Source: an uncultured Bacilli bacterium (GTDB lineage Bacteria > Bacillota_I > Bacilli_A > RF39 > UBA660). Taken from it: 64,000 bases of DNA. Under the pieces are notes generated by a model, which saw only the letters and a list, made by a program, of their open reading frames with translations, searched no databases and was not told the DNA's origin. The DNA is taken from contig CAKOLK010000005.1 in NCBI GenBank assembly GCA_934096275.1, positions 588 through 64,587 on the forward strand, written 5' to 3'. Shown here one piece after another: positions 9,709 to 54,823 of the stretch (its first letter is position 1; the number at the start of each line of letters is the position of its first letter). The position numbers were made by a program, and so were the translations under genes.

Positions 9709-10974
9709 TTACATACTTAATTGATATGGATCAGAACTTGTTCCAGATCCTCCAGATATTTTAACTGTAGATGAAAGTGATACTGCTGGTCTATGCGCCG
9801 CAGAAGTAGTATCGCCATATACCTCACGGAAAAAATCTCCATTTACTGATATACCTGCAACTGTTTCTGCTCCACCACTAGAATCTGCGTCTAGAGCATC
9901 AAACGTATATTCACGCGAACCATAGTACAACCAATTATTAGTAATACAATTTTCCTTATCATCTGTAAAATTACAACTATTTGAAAAGCATTGCTTACTA
10001 CATGATGTGCTAGATGCATAATTATAGTCGCTAACAAGCATTAAATGCATTTTGGGATTTGCATACCACATACCCGTATCATTAGTAAAATAAATATTTA
10101 TTATCATATTCTTTGATACATCATCTAAGTTATTGTAATAACCAACAACATGATCAGGATCATAAACACTATTCAATGTTGCCTCAGATTTTATAAGTTT
10201 ATACCTTGTTTCAGTAACACCATCTGCATCTTTAATTGGAATCATTCCAATTATTCTCCATACATCATTATTAAAAGTTACATAATTATTTACATTTTTT
10301 CCTCTATATCGATAACTTGTAACCGTATCTGATTCTTTTACTTCTTCAAGTCCATTTTGTCCTACGTTCGCTTGTGCAAATTCACTAGCAGTCATAGCTT
10401 TATTTTTTATTTCTTCATCACTTGCTTCAATATTAAGAGCATATTTATATTCAATAGGTTTAGTTACATCTCCATTTACATATATATCACTATTTGTTGC
10501 ACTCTCATCTATCCATAATCTTATTTCATAAGATTTACTATTCCCCTTAGTTAATGAATCATTAACTAAAAAAGTATCAGGATTACTCCCATTCGTAGTA
10601 TTCCCACTAGCGTTATCAATTAATTGAAACTTTATCTTATTTTTATTAATTGATGAATTATTTAAATCTTTAATAGTTAATTTATAATATGCTGTATCAC
10701 ATGTAGAATTATTAGTTATGACTACATCTTTAGCTTTTAATTTTAAAGCTTCACTATCTTTAATTGGATACTTACTAACTAGCATTAACTCATCACTTTC
10801 TTTAAAGTTTATATCTAGTTCACATTTAGATATTTTTATATTTCTTCTTCCAAGTAAATTAATGCTAGGACTAAATAAAGCAAAAGAAATACCTGCGATT
10901 ATAAGTACTAATGCTAGTATTACTAATGCTAGTGAAGATTTACTTTTTTTAAATTTTTCTAACATTTCTTTCAT
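9709..10974 (-). CDS. secreted protein, paralog family member 1 (TasA/SipW-type N-terminus, lectin-like C-terminal domain ending RPAVSL)
   Basis: Signal anchor ...GISFALFS. C-terminal half aligns with the 555-aa paralog (EFAQANVGQNGLEE, YRYRGKNVNNYVTFNNDVWRIIGMIP, ...VKISGGSGTSSDPYQLS). Confidence 0.6.
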   Translation of the reverse strand: MKEMLEKFKKSKSSLALVILALVLIIAGISFALFSPSINLLGRRNIKISKCELDINFKESDELMLVSKYPIKDSEALKLKAKDVVITNNSTCDTAYYKLTIKDLNNSSINKNKIKFQLIDNASGNTTNGSNPDTFLVNDSLTKGNSKSYEIRLWIDESATNSDIYVNGDVTKPIEYKYALNIEASDEEIKNKAMTASEFAQANVGQNGLEEVKESDTVTSYRYRGKNVNNYVTFNNDVWRIIGMIPIKDADGVTETRYKLIKSEATLNSVYDPDHVVGYYNNLDDVSKNMIINIYFTNDTGMWYANPKMHLMLVSDYNYASSTSCSKQCFSNSCNFTDDKENCITNNWLYYGSREYTFDALDADSSGGAETVAGISVNGDFFREVYGDTTSAAHRPAVSLSSTVKISGGSGTSSDPYQLSM

Positions 10975-13642: not shown

Positions 13643-15310
13643 TCAACTGATACTAAGCATATACGGTTTTTGAGAAGTCCCTTCTCCACCTGAAATCTTT
13701 ACGTTAGATGATAGATAAAGGACTGGACGCGCGCCATTCCCGTTGCTGCGGACGCTATCGCTAAGGACACAGCCAGCCGAGCTCACACCGAAAATGCCGT
13801 TGAAACTATCTGAAGACTGCGGAATCAACCACTCATATTGTGATTTATCTAACCAATTATTTGTTGTTATGCAACTTGCTGAATCATTATAATTATATAA
13901 GTTACTTGTACATTTTTTTGATGATGCATATCCATAATCACTTGCATACATTAGTGCTATCTTTTTAGATGCATCATTTTGCATTATAGGGTTTGTTCCA
14001 TAATAGTAACCTGTTCTATTTGCTTCATTCTTTCTCTCATATTGCCACATTACATCTGATGTTATTTCTGAGGTATTATATCCCCCAAGATAATATTTTG
14101 TTGTTCCTATCATGTTTTTTGCATCAGTAGTCAGTGTATTATAATAATCATTATTTAAATATGTGTTTAACGTTGCCGTTGTCCAATCATTTGATGAAGT
14201 TTCATTCCATTTCTTATTTCCAATAGATTCATCTTTTATAATTTTTATTCTACTTTCTACATTGCCATTTGTATCTTCAGTTGGTATTATTCCTATTATT
14301 CTCCATGTTTCATTATTAAACGTTACATAATTATTTACGTTTCCTCCACGATATCTATATTCTGTTGCAAATTTATTATCTACTTGTAATGTATTATCTA
14401 TTGTGTGAGTTATTTGTTCAAGTCCATCAGTGCCAACTTTAGCTTGTGCAAACTCTGTTGCAGTCACACTTGGTACAACAACATTAATACTTTGTTTAAC
14501 ACTCTTGCCACCATAGCTAATAGTAACTTCAGTATTTGAAGTTATTAAAGCACCACTTGGACTAATAGTATAATCTTTTATTTCATATGATTTATTATTA
14601 TTTAGATTAGCTTTAACTACCATACCAGTCTTATCAAAAGATTCTCCTTCATTATATTCTGTCTTTGATGGAGGTGTTGTAATACTTAAACTATTAATCT
14701 TTCCATATTCAAAACTGTCCATAGATACATTAACAGTCATATTAAATGTACCACTACTCTTATAAGTACCTGTTTGACTAGTATCATCTTTACTATATTC
14801 AGTTTTAGCATTATTTACATAACTATACCTTAATACATAGTCATATGTTTTAGATTCATTAAATATTTGTATATTATTAGTCTTTAATATATATTCATTA
14901 TCTTTACCAGTTACTTTAGTTAAATCACTTAACTTAGTTTTATCTACTAATTTATTATTACTCTTGTCAAATAGTTCTACATATACTAAATCATTTGATA
15001 TAGTACTATTTTCATTTACTTTTAAAAATATAGAATAATCTATATCAAACATATAATTAGTATCAGTACTTGATGCCATTACATTAAAATTAAAATCTTG
15101 TTTATCATTACTACTAGGATTGTTCATAGTAACAGTATTAGATTCAGTAAAATTAAACTTAAAATCAGGTTGTGATACTAATAACTTATTTAAAGCAGTA
15201 CCAGGTATACTTGCATTATAAACTGCAAGTGAACCTATTGCTAACACTAATATTAATCCTAAAGTACACAAAGTAATCTTTAATATCTTTTTCTTTTTAC
15301 TTTCTTCCAT
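13643..15310 (-). CDS. secreted protein, paralog family member 2 (TasA/SipW-type N-terminus, Ig-like domain, lectin-like C-terminal domain with an adenine-poor patch)
   Basis: Signal anchor, Ig-like segment (SITTPPSKTEYNEGESFDKTGMVVKA...), then the shared domain ending ARPVLYLSSNVKISGGEGTSQKPYMLS. Confidence 0.6.
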   Translation of the reverse strand: MEESKKKKILKITLCTLGLILVLAIGSLAVYNASIPGTALNKLLVSQPDFKFNFTESNTVTMNNPSSNDKQDFNFNVMASSTDTNYMFDIDYSIFLKVNENSTISNDLVYVELFDKSNNKLVDKTKLSDLTKVTGKDNEYILKTNNIQIFNESKTYDYVLRYSYVNNAKTEYSKDDTSQTGTYKSSGTFNMTVNVSMDSFEYGKINSLSITTPPSKTEYNEGESFDKTGMVVKANLNNNKSYEIKDYTISPSGALITSNTEVTISYGGKSVKQSINVVVPSVTATEFAQAKVGTDGLEQITHTIDNTLQVDNKFATEYRYRGGNVNNYVTFNNETWRIIGIIPTEDTNGNVESRIKIIKDESIGNKKWNETSSNDWTTATLNTYLNNDYYNTLTTDAKNMIGTTKYYLGGYNTSEITSDVMWQYERKNEANRTGYYYGTNPIMQNDASKKIALMYASDYGYASSKKCTSNLYNYNDSASCITTNNWLDKSQYEWLIPQSSDSFNGIFGVSSAGCVLSDSVRSNGNGARPVLYLSSNVKISGGEGTSQKPYMLSIS

Positions 15311-18489: not shown

Positions 18490-18692
18490 TAAAAAAGATC
18501 TATAAAATAAGGACGAAAGACTCCGTGGTACCACCTTACTTCATAGAACTCTATGCACTCTTTTTTTAACGCAAAACTACGTTTAAGCTCAAAGATACGT
18601 TCATAAAACACTTATTATTAGGTTTTCACTATCCCTAACTCACTAAAACAGTAATCTTTATTACTACTTCTTTTCATTGCTTAATAATATAG
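18490..18692 (-). promoter_or_regulatory. T-box leader with Arg (CGU) specifier
   Basis: Minus strand carries AATGAAAAGAAGTAGTA (GA/K-turn and AGUA), AGTGAG, specifier context GAA-CGT-A (codon at 18597-18599), and the T-box sequence GGTGGTACCACGG (18523-18535). Confidence 0.8.
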
Positions 18693-18725: not shown

Positions 18726-18748
18726 TAGTTTCCAATAAAATAATTTTA

Positions 18749-19310
18749 GGCAAAAAAAATAGACCGCTACCGAAAATAGCTATCTTACAAAAAACAACTC
18801 AATGTTTTTTTCCCTGCATATATAATATAACATAACCAGTAATACTATGTCAACTATATTTGGGTAAAAAAATAGACCCCTATCCGAAAATAGCTGCCTT
18901 ACAAAAAACAACTCAATGTTTTTTTACTTGCTCATATAATATAACATATCTAGTAATACTATGTCAACTATATTTGGGCAAAAAAATAGACCGCTATCCG
19001 AAAATAACTATCTTACAAAAAACAACTCAATGTTTTTTTCCCTGCATATATAATATAACATAACCAGTAATACTATGTCAACTATATTTGGGCAAAAAAA
19101 TAGACCCCTACCGAAAATAGCTGCCTTACAAAAAACAACTCAATGTTTTTTTCCCTGCATATATAATATAACATATCTAGTAATACTATGTCAACTATAT
19201 TTGGGCAAAAAAATAGACCCCTACCGAAAATAGCTGCCTTACAAAAAACAACTTAATGTTTTTTTACTTGCACATATAATATAACATAACCAGTAATACT
19301 ATGTCAATAT
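18749..19310. repeat. five tandem copies of a 113/114-bp repeat
   Basis: Copy starts at 18749, 18863, 18977, 19091 and 19204. Two sequence variants at four polymorphic blocks are shuffled between copies. Confidence 0.9.
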
Positions 19311-19324
19311 TTCTTATAAAGTTT

Positions 19325-20307
19325 TTATATTACATAATACTTTTTTATAATGCAATCAAAATAATGATAAACAGATTGTAATAACTCATTATTCTTATAA
19401 TAATTTTTATTTCTTGGTATCCTATCATAAAACAAATCATTGATCTTTTTAGTTACACCATACTTCACACCATTACTAGTTACTATTTTATCAAACATAT
19501 AAAGAGCATAAGTGATTTGTCTTATTCTTGAATTAGATAATTTTTTATATCTTGATTTTATACTTATATCACACCTATCTAAAAAATCAATAACTTCGAT
19601 ATGCGCTCTTTGGGTTTTATCTCTTACTCCTAAATCACTTAATATATTGGCATTATGGGCAACTGCGTTCCTTAACTTAACTATATCTTTCATTATATAA
19701 ACATCTTCTTTTTCTTTCTTCAATCCATATTCACTAGTAAAAAACTCATAAAAATTGATAAGTTCACCCATTGTTATTATTTCTAAGAACTCCCAAATAG
19801 GTATGTTTTCTAATCTATTATCTTTATCTATATCATATTTAGAAAAAATCTTTTTATAATAAGTGCTTGTAACTTTCTTTAAATACTATTGTGTAGTCTT
19901 TGTTCATTATTATAATCATTTTCTAGATACATATTTACTATTCTATACCCATCTTCTTCATCAATCTTTTCAATAAGATTAAGTATTTTCAATTTTAAAT
20001 AATGTTCTATATCCATTATTACATCATTAAGTACTAATCTAAGTTTCATATCAATTATAGATAGGTCTTTTAAATAAGCAAAATCTAAATCTAGATATTT
20101 ACCTTCCATTTTACCCGCAGGACTAGGATACTTTAAAAAATTATTCTTATAACAAGTAACATTATAATAATTATTATTAAACTTTAAATAAATAAACGCT
20201 TGCCTTTCACTAAATAATTTAAACTTAATGTTTTTCTTTTTTAAATTATTAATCATATCTTTTGTACTCATCATTGGTTCTAGTACATTTTTAGTTATCA
20301 TTTTCAT
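19325..20307 (-). pseudogene. frameshifted Abi_2 (AbiD/AbiF-like) abortive infection gene
   Basis: The N-terminal ORF (19879-20307) and C-terminal ORF (19325-19771, KLRNAVAHN motif) belong to one family. The C-terminal frame stays open up to 19885 (..IPIWEFLEIITMGELINFY), overlapping the end of the first ORF. Confidence 0.7.
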
Positions 20308-23042: not shown

Positions 23043-23122
23043 AATTTAAACTCCTTTTTAATTATTATTTAATTAACCATATCAGACACAGTTAAGTGAA
23101 AATGGTCTGGTCAAAGGGTCCG

Positions 23123-25324
23123 TCAGTCCAGAGCGCCAGGAAGCACGGCACGAGCAGAGTAGTAAGTGTAAGCAGAACCGTAGTAGTGGCTGAAGCGGAA
23201 CGCGCCGGCGCTAGCACCATCGCTATAGGACCCACCACGGAGGAACCAAGGGGTGGAACTGCTAGGAAAGTTGGCGTAATCTGAATACCAGTTACCACTT
23301 GTTCCTGTTGGTGCCATTTCTTTTGTTGCATCTCCTAGTTTTCCTCTTGTATATTCTGTAGCTCTTGTTCCATAACTATATTTATCATAATATCTTTTAC
23401 TTGGAAATGCATATATTCCTGTAAATGTCCTACCACCATCATATAAGATTCCTGTAAATGCTGAGTTATAGTTATTACTTGTTTTATATCCACTCATTTG
23501 TTGTCCATTACTATATACCATATTACCCATCATATATTCATATGATCCACCACTCATGTCATATACTCCATATACATTTCCTGTTGTTGATGCACTTTGT
23601 CCTAATGTTGTTGTATATGAATTACATGTTGCACCCTCACTAGTTGAACCTTCACTTTGTGGCCCACATCCTGTTGTATATGTATTTGCACTATTTATTG
23701 CTACTTCTTTATTTATTCCATATTTACTATGTGATAAATATGTTACTGCTCCCCATTCCATATTTTTCATCATATGAGTTTCATCAGTTGTTGCAAATCC
23801 ATATTTATTTCCAGACTCTCTCATCTTTTGGATTCCATTAAAGAATGTTCCTACTTGTGCACCTCTCCATGATGCTACATTTGGTTTTATCTGAGGTCTT
23901 ATTGTTTGTAAGTTACATCCTGACCCTACTGCTACATAATCTGAAGCTGTACATGTAGTATCACTTGATACTTCAAACTTACCTACCCATATTCCTGTTA
24001 GTTCTTCTCCTGTTTCTCTTACGTTGTTATCATTTTTATCCCACCAAAATGCTGGATGAGTATATGTACTTGTTCCTGCTTTTAATCCTCCATTTGTTGT
24101 ATCTGTACATGTTTCACTTGTACTTGATGTTCCAGTAACATTATTAGTACATTTAATTGTACCAGTACTTGCTGTACCACTTTCAAACTTAACATTTATT
24201 TCTTGTGGTGTATTTGTATTTAAATATGTATATGTATATCTTGGTACCCATACCCACATTGTATTTATATCACTCATTGGTATTGTTGTTCCTGCATCTG
24301 CTTTTAAATAAGTTGCTCTATTTGTTTCACTTACTGTTACTGCATTTGCCCACATCTTATCATCATAATCATACCATGTATTATCACTTTTTACATACCC
24401 TGTTTTTTCTATAGTAGCTTTTTTGCCATAATACTCGCTACTTGTTAAAATATTTTTATCTTCTTCAGTAATATAACCATCACTATTCATATCACCAGGA
24501 ATACATTCTTTTGTATTAGCTTTTTTATTGTAACACTTAGTTATGTTCAATAATATACCTAAATCTGCAGAATTAATCCAACCATTATTATCTAAATCTC
24601 CAAGTTTATAAGTATATTCTACTAAACTATTAGTATCATCGGCCTTTTTCCATGCCTTATTTGTTTCATCATAATATACTGGTATCATGTTTGAAGTAAG
24701 CTTTGGTGCATTTGCTCCGCTTTTATCTATTAATCTTTTTGGTGCAGCCTCATTATTCACATTAACTCTAAACTTATAACTATAAGTCTTTTCATTTATC
24801 TTACTAGCATCAAAATTATAATCTAACCAAGTTCTTAGTCTATATGTAGTACTACGTTCTGTATCATTTTTATTAAATGTTTCTTCTTGAGACTTTAATA
24901 CATATTGATTTAACATTTTTATACTAATTGGACCAGTAACCAATACCTCAGTATTATTATCTACTTTAGTAAGATAAACTTTAATATCACTATCACTAAA
25001 CTTAGTATAAGAGCTATCTACATTAAGTGGTTCTAATACTATATTATAATTCATAGTCATTTCTTTATTAGTCTTAATATAAGTATTAACCTTAAACTCA
25101 AAATAATTAGTACTTGATATACCTTTATTATCACTCGTAGGAACAACATTATTTAATGTAATTTCATTAGATTCACTATAACTCATCTTTACTTGACCAG
25201 TAGATATAGAATTATTATCAGTAAGTAAATCTATATTATATAAAGCATAAGTTCCAAATGATAAAACTCCTACTGCAAATAAAGATAAAACTATCATAGT
25301 AAATATTTTCTTTTTCTTATCCAT
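23123..25324 (-). CDS. secreted protein, paralog family member 3 (TasA/SipW-type N-terminus, dockerin-like EF-hand pair, FGE-sulfatase/C-type-lectin-like C-terminal domain with an adenine-poor patch)
   Basis: Signal ...SFGTYALYNID and TGQVKMSYSESNEITLNNVVP module; DLDNNGWINSADL and DMNSDGYITEEDK loops; C-terminal WVGKFEVS ... WFLRGGSYSDG... Confidence 0.65.
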   Translation of the reverse strand: MDKKKKIFTMIVLSLFAVGVLSFGTYALYNIDLLTDNNSISTGQVKMSYSESNEITLNNVVPTSDNKGISSTNYFEFKVNTYIKTNKEMTMNYNIVLEPLNVDSSYTKFSDSDIKVYLTKVDNNTEVLVTGPISIKMLNQYVLKSQEETFNKNDTERSTTYRLRTWLDYNFDASKINEKTYSYKFRVNVNNEAAPKRLIDKSGANAPKLTSNMIPVYYDETNKAWKKADDTNSLVEYTYKLGDLDNNGWINSADLGILLNITKCYNKKANTKECIPGDMNSDGYITEEDKNILTSSEYYGKKATIEKTGYVKSDNTWYDYDDKMWANAVTVSETNRATYLKADAGTTIPMSDINTMWVWVPRYTYTYLNTNTPQEINVKFESGTASTGTIKCTNNVTGTSSTSETCTDTTNGGLKAGTSTYTHPAFWWDKNDNNVRETGEELTGIWVGKFEVSSDTTCTASDYVAVGSGCNLQTIRPQIKPNVASWRGAQVGTFFNGIQKMRESGNKYGFATTDETHMMKNMEWGAVTYLSHSKYGINKEVAINSANTYTTGCGPQSEGSTSEGATCNSYTTTLGQSASTTGNVYGVYDMSGGSYEYMMGNMVYSNGQQMSGYKTSNNYNSAFTGILYDGGRTFTGIYAFPSKRYYDKYSYGTRATEYTRGKLGDATKEMAPTGTSGNWYSDYANFPSSSTPWFLRGGSYSDGASAGAFRFSHYYGSAYTYYSARAVLPGALD

Positions 25325-54214: not shown

Positions 54215-54823
54215 TTATGCATTAGCATTTATATTTACTCTAAACTTATAACTATAAGAATTCTTAGTAACTTTATCAGTATCAACACTAGAATCAATCC
54301 ATGCTCTAAGTCTATAATTTGTTAAGACTCTACCTTTATTATTTGAAAATACTTCTTCTTGTGATTTAAGTATATAATTATTTAACTTATCAATAGTAAC
54401 AGAATTAACAACAACTCTCTCAACACCATTTTCCACTTTAGTTAAATACACTTTTATTTCGTTATCATGCAATGGATTATCTACACTTATTGGTTCAATA
54501 ATCACATTATAATTAAGTTTTCTTTTCTTATTATCACTTTCTTTAGTTTTAATATAAGACAATACTTGAAAATCAAAATAATCATTCAAACTCTTACCAG
54601 CATCATCAGGTAAAGGAATAGCATTTTCCATTTTGATTTCATTAGATTCGGTATAACTCATCTTAATTTGTCCAGTAGATATACTATTATTGCCAGTAAT
54701 TGAATCTCCAGCAACATCCCAAAAGGCATATGTACCAAAAGATACTAACGCTAAATTAAATAACATTAATGCAAGTAATATTAATATTCTTTTCTTTTTA
54801 TTATTATCGTTTTTGTTTTCCAT
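54215..54823 (-). CDS. secreted protein, paralog family member 4 (TasA/SipW-type signal and N-module only)
   Basis: ...LVSFGTYAFWDV..ISTGQIKMSYTESNEIKMENAIP...YSYKFRVNINANA is colinear with aa 1-190 of the 733-aa paralog. Confidence 0.55.
   Translation of the reverse strand: MENKNDNNKKKRILILLALMLFNLALVSFGTYAFWDVAGDSITGNNSISTGQIKMSYTESNEIKMENAIPLPDDAGKSLNDYFDFQVLSYIKTKESDNKKRKLNYNVIIEPISVDNPLHDNEIKVYLTKVENGVERVVVNSVTIDKLNNYILKSQEEVFSNNKGRVLTNYRLRAWIDSSVDTDKVTKNSYSYKFRVNINANA

What the first reader, a model, noticed from the sequence alone, without database searches (positions are those of the whole stretch)
23098..23278. Adenine-poor, GC-rich patch at the 3' end of the 733-aa secreted protein gene, resembling a DGR variable region
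- **GC content:** By hand count, 23101-23280 is 103/180 (57%) G+C, in a gene and genome that are otherwise under 30%.
- **Codon usage in the patch:** On the coding strand the last 41 codons (TGG TTC CTC CGT GGT GGG TCC TAT AGC GAT ... CCT GGC GCT CTG GAC) contain no A-ending codon. They hold only 13 adenines, all at codon positions 1-2 (TAC, TAT, AGC, GAT, CAC, ACT, GAC). Arg is CGT/CGC, Leu is CTC/CTT/CTG, Gly is GGT/GGG/GGC and Ala is GCT/GCC/GCG.
- **Contrast with the flank:** The same gene immediately upstream uses GCA, CCA, ACA and GGA.
- **Extent:** The GC-rich stretch continues about 25 nt past the stop codon, so it is a nucleotide-level feature and not only a protein constraint.
- **Encoded peptide:** RGGSYSDGASAGAFRFSHYYGSAYTYYSARAVL is rich in residues reachable from AAY codons. 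It sits at the extreme C-terminus of a domain with an FGE-sulfatase/C-type-lectin-like signature (WVGKFEVS ... RGGS[WY]).
- **Interpretation:** An adenine-free scaffold with variable Tyr/Ser/Asp/His/Thr positions at the end of a lectin-fold domain is the hallmark of a target of a diversity-generating retroelement (DGR).
- **Missing parts:** No reverse transcriptase, Avd or template repeat is in this window. This would be either a remote target or a relic.
Basis: partly seen in the sequence, partly recalled or inferred. Interest (0 to 1): 0.8.

Follow-up and report, generated by a model that had tools for sequence, protein, structure and literature searches.

The report
DGR variable region, template elsewhere
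The GC-rich tip of this secreted-protein gene is a variable region written by a diversity-generating retroelement (DGR, a reverse-transcriptase system that rewrites one short stretch of a gene) whose template lies outside the window; this is a known kind of system, seen here in an uncultured gut bacterium that carries many such target genes.

Summary

- **What it is.** Window 23126-23277 (minus strand) is the variable region (VR) at the 3' end of the 733-aa gene. It has 59% G+C in a 26% G+C genome and no A-ending codon.
- **Family evidence.** The protein belongs to a family of more than 3,200 members in uncultured gut Bacilli. The last ~50 residues are hypervariable at discrete positions between invariant scaffold residues.
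- **Complete DGRs in relatives.** Relatives carry MutS-like, bAvd and reverse-transcriptase genes next to such targets. In nine template repeat (TR)/VR pairs, 145 of 149 mismatches fall on template adenines.
- **Template of the window's clade.** A search with the Asn-rich peptide predicted for the window's template recovered TRs of the window's own clade, followed by a MutS_I gene. Against the TR in L250, the window's VR has 27 mismatches in 150 nt, 18 of them on the 34 template adenines (p = 4e-8).
- **What is missing.** The exact cognate template and reverse transcriptase (RT) were not found, and the window contains none.
- **Activity.** The post-stop hairpin that relatives have is truncated here, and the VR is identical in three strains. 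It is probably a weakly active or disabled remote target.

This is a new member of a known kind, of moderate interest.

The parts
23123..25324 (-). Target gene g733, 733 aa. It has an N-terminal signal/membrane anchor, a variable N-terminal module, a weak dockerin-like segment, and a conserved ~420-aa C-terminal domain ending in the VR.
   Evidence: ORF list. Pfam gives only a weak dockerin hit at residues 241-293. More than 3,200 homologs share the C-terminal ~57% at 80-88% identity.
23126..24082 (-). C-terminal ligand-binding domain (residues 415-733), probably the FGE-type C-type-lectin fold.
   Evidence: The family profile's best PDB match is 5VF4 (TaqVP, a DGR variable protein), E = 0.003. 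13 of 30 family members give weak PF03781 hits. The AlphaFold model was unusable, pLDDT 31.
23126..23277 (-). Variable region (VR): the stretch homologous to the template repeats of the clade. It is 59% G+C, holds 18 A in its last 150 nt (23126-23275), and has no A-ending codon.
   Evidence: The TR homology boundaries come from the L250 TR and from the TRs of ten cassettes in relatives. Scaffold bases are identical to L006 in 138 of 138 positions, against 12% divergence upstream.
23121..23128 (-). Remnant of the target-site hairpin: the 5' arm GACTGAC (last codon + stop + C) plus the next base G. The loop and 3' arm (AAGTCAGTCTTGC in L024) are missing.
   Evidence: Comparison of post-stop sequences. 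Folding shows relatives form 7-13-bp hairpins, while the window gives -3.2 kcal/mol, z = +0.33.
23069..23120 (-). Conserved element downstream of the VR (GACCC...TTCACTTAACTGTGTCTGA...GGTTAATTAA). It accounts for the G+C-rich run past the stop codon. Its function is unknown.
   Evidence: It occurs once in the window and once per family gene in clade relatives. It also follows a TR in P0271.
23606..23665 (-). 58-nt tract (within codons 554-573) holding all 11 nucleotide differences in the gene (plus 85 nt downstream) between this strain and strain L255. It looks like a paralog gene-conversion patch and is not part of the VR.
   Evidence: The alternative sequence matches paralogs P0016 and P0059.
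13718..13831 (-). Candidate second VR of a different type, at the C-terminal end of a weak DUF6273 domain in gene g555 (13643..15310).
   Evidence: G+C peak and low A. The segment is hypervariable and varies in length among homologs. It is G+C-rich with shared scaffold ends in some lineages and of ordinary G+C in others. DUF6273 is a published DGR target domain. No template was found.
9777..9905 (-). Weaker G+C-enriched patch at the equivalent place in the paralog g421 (9709..10974). It may be an old or decayed VR of the g555 type.

Best explanation
Window 23126-23277 is the variable region of a diversity-generating retroelement (DGR) target gene.

Mechanism, taken from established DGR biology and seen in relatives. 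A template repeat (TR) is transcribed. A DGR reverse transcriptase, working with bAvd and here a MutS-domain-I accessory protein, copies it into cDNA and misincorporates opposite template adenines. [quoted passage not shown] This randomises about 15 codons (AAY in the template) on the ligand-binding face of a lectin-like domain in a secreted or surface protein.

Why the patch looks the way it does. The template must avoid adenine everywhere except the codons meant to vary. The VR is therefore an adenine-poor, G+C-rich island in a 26% G+C genome.

What is specific to this copy. Its TR and RT lie outside the 64-kb window, so it is a remote target. It is one of many paralogs that TR alleles of the same clade serve.

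Inferred, not shown. This copy has lost the loop and 3' arm of the hairpin that directly follows the VR in relatives, and its VR is unchanged in three strains. It is therefore probably a poorly active or switched-off target whose sequence was written recently.
For: **Shown for this locus**
- Composition and codon anomaly.
- Position-specific hypervariability in homologs: entropy above 3 bits at about 20 positions, with N/Y/S/G/D dominant, between invariant W679, Y680, W693, R696, G716 (S723 and R725 nearly invariant).
- Against L006, a non-syntenic gene in another species, the VR scaffold has 0 differences in 138 nt. Upstream, 131 of 1071 nt differ (P = 1.5e-8). All 20 VR differences lie in 12 codons, 19 of them at codon positions 1-2.
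- A search with the Asn-rich peptide predicted for the template recovered TR-derived ORFs of the same clade.
- L250 carries a paralog VR, a hairpin and then a TR. L252 and L253 carry a TR followed by a MutS_I gene.
- The window VR against the L250 TR has 27 mismatches in 150 nt, 18 on the 34 template adenines (Fisher p = 4e-8).

**Shown in relatives**
- L050 has a complete cassette, confirmed by Pfam scan: MutS_I, bAvd and RVT_1. L081-L089 show the same three families in precomputed gene annotation.
- TR/VR pairs have 145 of 149 mismatches at template adenines.
- Strains with an identical RT and 99.7-100% identical flanks carry different VRs.
- Across 38 paralog VRs, G+C falls as non-adenine mismatches to the clade TRs rise (Spearman rho = -0.82, p = 2e-10). 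The G+C island is therefore the footprint of template-derived sequence.

**For the disabled or slow sub-claim**
- The hairpin is present in relatives and absent here.
- In BPP-1 a hairpin directly after the VR is required for efficient retrohoming (PMC3240598).
- The VR is identical in strains L001 and L255. In active systems 5 of 6 equally close strain pairs differ.
Against: - **Cognate template not found.** The closest TR alleles differ from the window VR at 8-9 non-adenine positions. Pattern scans for an exact template found nothing in the genome representatives, the metagenome collection or the viral contigs. The first pattern, the only one run on the genome representatives, was too strict at codon 710.
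- **No RT or TR shown in this organism.** It is not among the species representatives searched.
- **Fold unconfirmed.** The lectin fold of the window protein is not confirmed by Pfam or by a structure model.
- **Weak basis for the disabled sub-claim.** It rests on analogy to the Bordetella phage hairpin requirement and on only two strain comparisons at 0.06-0.17% divergence.
Confidence: 0.87

Rival explanations
1. It is a fully active remote target. The DGR elsewhere in this genome still rewrites this VR at a normal rate, and the three sampled strains are simply too closely related to show it. The truncated hairpin would then be dispensable in this DGR lineage.
For: - The VR scaffold shows no decay: 0 of 138 differences from L006.
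- The strains differ by only 0.06-0.17%.
- One pair of strains in an active system (L083/L084) also shares a VR.
- Other paralogs with trimmed hairpins, such as L020 and L009, still have G+C-rich VRs.
Against: - In active systems, strains with identical flanks usually differ in the VR (5 of 6 pairs).
- A hairpin abuts the VR in four independent lineages and has different sequences in each, which suggests it is functional.
- Experimental precedent in BPP-1.
Confidence: 0.3
2. The VR sequence reached this gene by recombination (gene conversion) with a paralog that is the real DGR target. On this view the locus was never retrohomed itself.
For: - Paralog gene conversion does occur in this gene. 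All 11 differences from strain L255 lie in a 58-nt tract that matches other paralogs.
- The family is highly modular.
Against: - The boundary of the G+C-rich, scaffold-identical stretch coincides with the 5' end of TR homology (codon 683/684) and not with an arbitrary recombination breakpoint.
- The VR content is unique among the sequences recovered.
Confidence: 0.08
3. The patch is a recent horizontal transfer from a G+C-rich donor, or merely the result of a Gly/Ala/Ser/Tyr-rich peptide. On this view it has nothing to do with a retroelement.
For: The encoded peptide is rich in G, A, S and Y.
Against: - The bias is at synonymous sites: 0 of 50 A-ending codons against 302 of 682 elsewhere.
- Paralogs encoding the same domain without TR-like scaffolds have ordinary G+C of 0.29-0.45.
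- The patch matches a TR found next to MutS_I genes.
- No foreign flanks are involved.
Confidence: 0.02

Closest known systems
DGRs with remote (non-adjacent) targets, e.g. the Treponema denticola TvpA system and the 'Lineage 4' cellular DGRs of Wu et al. 2018 (PMC5758913)
   Same: - The target gene is chromosomal and has no RT or TR nearby.
- The VR sits at the extreme 3' end of a surface or secreted protein.
- Several paralogous targets are scattered over the genome.
- The element is cellular, not phage-borne.
   Different: - The paralog family is much larger. One MAG (CAKOIB) has at least 19 VR-type gene ends, of which about 7 are close to a clade TR. Wu et al. report a maximum of seven non-adjacent targets.
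- Several TR alleles or types exist, some in tandem.
- The cognate TR for this locus was not recovered.
MSL-containing DGR cassettes (MutS-like + Avd + RT), as in Legionella and some Bacteroides DGRs (PMC5758913; bioRxiv 10.1101/2024.11.15.621889)
   Same: Relatives of the window's system have the same gene set and order: TR, then MutS_I, bAvd and RVT_1.
   Different: The host is a sporulating, very low-G+C uncultured gut Bacilli lineage. The targets carry pilin-like, SipW-like (judged by eye) or other N-terminal modules.
TaqVP, TvpA and Mtd: FGE-type C-type-lectin-fold DGR variable proteins
   Same: - The VR is at the C-terminus.
- Shared motifs are HPAF..W(I/V)G.F, H.M.N.EW.AVA.L and G..D..G...E. 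TaqVP is the best PDB sequence match.
   Different: Similarity is marginal (E = 0.003). The window protein itself has no Pfam FGE-sulfatase hit, and large insertions are present. The fold was not confirmed structurally.
BPP-1 target-site hairpin/cruciform (Guo et al. 2011, PMC3240598)
   Same: Relatives have a short perfect hairpin with a 3-4-nt loop immediately after the end of TR/VR homology. It is present at the VR and absent at the TR.
   Different: In the window's clade the hairpin is built from the last codon and the stop codon. In the window itself its loop and 3' arm are deleted.

Membership tests
DGR variable region (target of mutagenic retrohoming) | A template repeat exists whose differences from the VR fall (almost) only at template adenines | tested here: inconclusive
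   No exact cognate TR was found. The nearest TR alleles of the same clade (L250, L258-261) give 26-27 mismatches in 150 nt. 18 of these fall on the 34 template adenines and 8-9 elsewhere (Fisher p = 4e-8). The non-adenine differences are shared with L006, which implies a different TR allele.
DGR variable region (target of mutagenic retrohoming) | A DGR-type reverse transcriptase in the same genome | not testable with these tools
   None is in the window. The organism's genome is not in the searchable species representatives. Relatives with targets of the same family do have RVT_1 genes carrying the IGNYTSQ and (Y/F)MDDF motifs.
DGR variable region (target of mutagenic retrohoming) | Hypervariability among close homologs restricted to positions corresponding to template adenines, with an invariant scaffold | tested here: met
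   Entropy profile. Against L006, 0 of 138 scaffold differences, with 20 differences in 12 codons. The variable codons coincide with AAY codons of the clade TRs.
DGR variable region (target of mutagenic retrohoming) | [quoted passage not shown] | tested here: met
   The VR ends at the last sense codon, 23126.
DGR variable region (target of mutagenic retrohoming) | Target-recognition element (IMH and/or hairpin) immediately downstream of the VR | tested here: not met
   Relatives have a 7-13-bp hairpin abutting the stop codon. The window retains only the 5' arm and does not fold.
FGE-sulfatase / C-type-lectin fold variable protein | Pfam PF03781 match at gathering score, or a structural match to Mtd, TvpA or TaqVP | tested here: inconclusive
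   The window protein has no hit. 13 of 30 relatives give weak hits (best E = 2e-4). The profile against PDB has TaqVP as best match, E = 0.003. The structure model failed at pLDDT 31, so no fold search was run.
MSL-class DGR cassette (MutS-like + bAvd + RT) | TR followed by MutS_I, bAvd and RVT_1 genes | tested here: met
   Met in relatives only. L050 was confirmed by Pfam scan. L081-L089 carry the three families in precomputed gene annotation. In the window's clade the TR is followed by MutS_I in L252 and L253. None of this is present in the window.
DUF6273-type DGR target (for the second patch, g555) | DUF6273 domain with the VR at its C-terminal end and a cognate TR | tested here: inconclusive
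   A weak DUF6273 hit, below the Pfam cut-off. A hypervariable, G+C-rich segment sits at the right place. No TR was found.

The most novel reading that the evidence does not exclude
In this clade of uncultured, sporulating gut Bacilli, a single MutS-like/Avd/RT cassette carries a small array of template alleles. There are at least three types, matching the three VR sub-types. This cassette would diversify a dispersed repertoire of ten or more surface-protein paralogs per genome, a larger remote-target network than any described. Individual targets would be switched off by loss of the post-stop hairpin and then decay toward genomic G+C, which leaves a readable gradient from live to dead VRs. 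If so, G+C or adenine islands alone could reveal orphan DGR targets in low-G+C genomes. MAG-based DGR surveys would systematically miss these cassettes, because the repeats break assemblies.
Probability: 0.3. Interest if true: 0.6.

Novelty: new member of a known kind. Interest (0 to 1): 0.4.

Why it matters
- **Reading a target without its template.** A DGR target can be recognised from composition alone in a very low-G+C genome, even when the RT and template are missing from the assembly.
- **A blind spot in surveys.** Large surveys require a TR next to the RT, so they cannot see remote targets (Roux 2021). In this clade the TR-bearing contigs are all under 1.4 kb, so the cassettes drop out of MAGs.
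- **A large, undescribed target family.** The locus belongs to a big modular family of secreted lectin-like proteins in uncultured human-gut Bacilli. These proteins are probably adhesins or receptors under rapid diversification.
- **A possible natural off-switch.** The family shows a gradient from freshly written to decayed VRs, and hairpin loss is a candidate mechanism for switching a target off.

None of this changes the known DGR mechanism.

Tried and rejected
- **Template in the window.** The repeat finder and word-7 blastn found nothing.
- **First scaffold pattern.** No hits in viral contigs or genome representatives. I later realised it was too strict at codon 710, where the third position also varies. 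That cost one of the two genome scans.
- **Corrected pattern.** No hits in the metagenome collection or viral contigs.
- **RT-guided search.** I screened 9 ENA cassettes and 160 RT loci from the metagenome and viral collections for an adenine-compatible template. There was no cognate for any of the three window patches.
- **Structure prediction of the C-terminal 319 aa.** pLDDT was 31 because the alignment was shallow and closely related, so no fold search was run.
- **NCBIfam on the three window proteins.** No hits.
- **g555-type template.** None in the loci held or in viral contigs.
- **Rejected: transfer from a G+C-rich donor, and pure amino-acid composition.** See the rival explanations.
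- **Rejected: orthology with L006 as the cause of the identical scaffold.** The loci are not syntenic and the rest of the domain is 12% divergent.
Full report
**Observation**

- The window is 25.9% G+C. The segment 23101-23280 is 103/180 G+C, and it is the strongest G+C peak in the 64 kb.
- It lies at the 3' end of the minus-strand ORF 23123..25324, which encodes 733 aa.
- On the coding strand the last 41 codons hold 13 adenines, all at codon positions 1-2. Given the gene's own A frequency this has P = 1.3e-14.
- The 50 codons of the repeat-homologous stretch have third positions C25/T20/G5/A0. The rest of the gene has A302/T295/G67/C18.
- No template-like copy is in the window, and no RT, Avd or MutS-like gene.

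**The protein family**

The protein has more than 3,200 homologs, almost all from gut metagenome assemblies. The C-terminal ~420 aa are 80-88% identical among the closest ones, while the N-terminal modules are swapped freely.

Within the conserved domain, the last ~50 residues alternate between two kinds of position:
- invariant or nearly invariant residues: W679, Y680, W693, R696, G716 (invariant), S723, R725 (116 of 118);
- positions with more than 3 bits of entropy, dominated by N, Y, S, G and D.

That residue spectrum is what AAY codons produce after adenine mutagenesis.

A scan of species-representative genomes found 363 matches, all in uncultured low-G+C Bacilli ("Tenericutes") gut MAGs. 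Individual MAGs carry many copies. CAKOIB alone contributes 20 loci.

**Complete DGRs in relatives**

A tblastn search of the fetched loci with an Asn-rich "template-like" peptide picked out two non-coding copies next to family genes.
- **L050 is a full cassette**: a target gene with a pilin-type N-terminus, the VR, the TR, a MutS_I protein, bAvd, and an RVT_1 reverse transcriptase with IGNYTSQ and FMDDF motifs.
- **L045 is a decayed cassette**. Its TR has a deletion and non-adenine mismatches, its accessory ORFs are truncated, and it has no RT.

RT homologs led to nine further cassettes with the same gene annotation. In nine of the ten TR/VR pairs aligned (L045 not included; L083 and L084 are identical), 145 of 149 mismatches lie at template adenines. 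Strains with an identical RT and 99.7-100% identical flanks carry different VRs in 5 of 6 comparisons. This DGR lineage is therefore active in nature.

The TRs start at the codons equivalent to window codon 683/684, which is exactly where the window's G+C-rich patch begins. The MutS-like accessory gene (MSL) and remote targets are both described features of cellular DGRs (Wu et al. 2018).

**Evidence bearing on the window's own VR**

1. **Comparison with L006.** L006 is in a different species and is not syntenic with the window.
   - The window differs from it at 131 of 1071 nt upstream of codon 677.
   - In the VR scaffold it differs at 0 of 138 nt (P = 1.5e-8).
   - All 20 VR differences lie in 12 codons, 19 of them at positions 1-2.
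   - Two VRs written from nearly the same template would look like this.
2. **Recovery of clade templates.** From the two VRs I inferred the template peptide and searched the protein collection with it.
   - The hits are 50-98-aa ORFs on contigs of about 0.5-2.6 kb (window-clade TR contigs are under 1.4 kb) that read, for example, ANFPNGSNPWFIRGGNYGNGANAGAFNFNNNNGNANTNNSARAVFLGALD.
   - Three TR types were recovered: FP...GALD, FV...LLG.GALD and ...ILNLN. They match the three VR sub-types among the paralogs.
   - L250 shows a paralog's VR and hairpin, about 300 nt of spacer, and then the TR. L252 and L253 show the TR followed by a MutS_I gene.
3. **Mismatch spectrum.** Against the L250 TR, the window VR has 27 mismatches in 150 nt, 18 on the 34 template adenines (Fisher p = 4e-8).
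   - The 8-9 non-adenine differences recur with other alleles and are shared with L006.
   - The writer was therefore a slightly different TR allele, which I did not find.
4. **G+C as a footprint.** Across 38 paralog VRs, G+C content falls as non-adenine mismatches to the clade TRs rise (rho = -0.82, p = 2e-10).
   - VRs close to a TR are 0.54-0.60 G+C. Paralogs with 30 or more non-adenine mismatches are mostly 0.29-0.45 G+C.
   - The G+C island is therefore the footprint of template-derived sequence, and the family holds a gradient from fresh to decayed VRs.

**Is this copy still being diversified?**

In every lineage with a demonstrable DGR, a perfect hairpin abuts the stop codon:
- L086-89: 13-bp stem, z = -6.5;
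- L050: 10-bp stem, z = -4.2.

In the window's clade the hairpin is GACTGAC-GAA-GTCAGTC, built from the last codon and the stop. It is present at VRs and absent at the TR.

The window reads GACTGACG followed directly by the conserved downstream element. Relative to L024 it lacks the 13 nt AAGTCAGTCTTGC, and it does not fold (z = +0.33). In phage BPP-1, such a hairpin immediately after the VR is required for efficient retrohoming (Guo et al. 2011).

The VR and its downstream region are identical in two further strains, which are 99.83% and 99.94% identical over 16-22 kb. I therefore infer a recently written but now slow or disabled remote target. This inference rests on analogy and on a small sample.

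**Protein fold**

- Pfam gives no FGE-sulfatase hit for the window protein.
- 13 of 30 diverse family members give weak hits.
- The family profile's best PDB match is 5VF4, E = 0.003. 5VF4 is TaqVP, a DGR variable protein with the FGE-type C-type-lectin fold.
- The AlphaFold model was unusable, pLDDT 31.

The fold assignment is likely but unconfirmed.

**Verdict**

This is a DGR variable region of a known type (lectin-like target, MSL/Avd/RT lineage). The gene is a remote member of a large paralog family. It is a new member of a known kind. The interest lies in four points:
- the size and modularity of the target family;
- the existence of several TR alleles or types;
- the live-to-dead gradient of VRs;
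- the fact that the cassettes are lost from MAGs because the repeats break assemblies.

**Also seen**

A second G+C-rich, adenine-poor, hypervariable segment lies at the C-terminal end of a weak DUF6273 domain in g555 (13718-13831), and a fainter one in g421. DUF6273 is a published DGR target domain, but I found no template for it.

Noticed in passing
window 13718-13831 (gene 13643..15310, minus strand): A second G+C-rich, adenine-poor patch sits at the C-terminal end of a weak DUF6273 domain. It is hypervariable and varies in length among homologs. In some lineages it is G+C-rich with shared scaffold ends (TGGTTGCTTCCGCAG...GTGCGCCCAGTCCTT), and in others it has ordinary G+C. It is probably a VR of the published DUF6273 target type, but no template was found.
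   Followed up: partly
window 9777-9905 (gene 9709..10974, minus strand): A weaker G+C enrichment (~41-46%) lies at the equivalent position of a paralog of the gene above. It may be a decayed VR.
   Followed up: partly
window 23606-23665: All 11 nucleotide differences in the 733-aa gene (plus 85 nt downstream) between this strain and strain L255 (99.94% identical over 22 kb) fall in one 58-nt tract within codons 554-573. The alternative version equals the sequence of other paralogs, so this looks like gene conversion between paralogs.
   Followed up: partly
window 18745-19307 and 18506-18686: Five tandem copies of a 114-nt unit lie directly upstream of the T-box leader of the arginyl-tRNA synthetase gene. 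Copy number differs between strains. By eye, each unit carries a TTGACA / TATATT-like promoter on the minus strand.
   Followed up: partly
window 23069-23120; also L009, L020, L023, L024, L025: A conserved ~50-nt element (GACCC...TTCACTTAACTGTGTCTGA...GGTTAATTAA) follows the VR of family genes in the window's clade. It also follows a TR in one contig (P0271). Its function is unknown.
   Followed up: partly
L250-L254, L256-L261: Every contig of the window's clade that carries a template repeat is shorter than 1.4 kb. The TR/VR repeats evidently break short-read assemblies, so these DGR cassettes are missing from MAGs and from surveys that need the RT and TR on one contig.
   Followed up: no
L086, L087, L089 (two TRs ~400 nt apart); L082 vs L083: Some cassettes carry two tandem template repeats with slightly different sequences. 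Strains with identical RT proteins can also carry different TR alleles.
   Followed up: partly
L045 15229-16205: A decayed cassette in MAG CAKOMW. The TR has a 24-nt deletion and non-adenine mismatches, the MutS-like and Avd ORFs are truncated, there is no RT, and a phage MuF-like ORF follows.
   Followed up: partly
window 54215..54823, 25120-25232; proteins P0058, P0083: The N-terminal modules are shuffled. A 202-aa ORF repeats only the N-terminal module of the 733-aa gene. P0058 joins the g421-type N-terminus to the lectin-like domain. P0083 joins a DUF6273 domain to it. Relatives use pilin-type (N_methyl) or Laminin_G N-termini.
   Followed up: no
window 19325..20307: Two small ORFs lie between the sigma-factor gene and the tandem array. 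The equivalent of one of them is annotated Abi_2 (abortive-infection family) in the sister strain.
   Followed up: no
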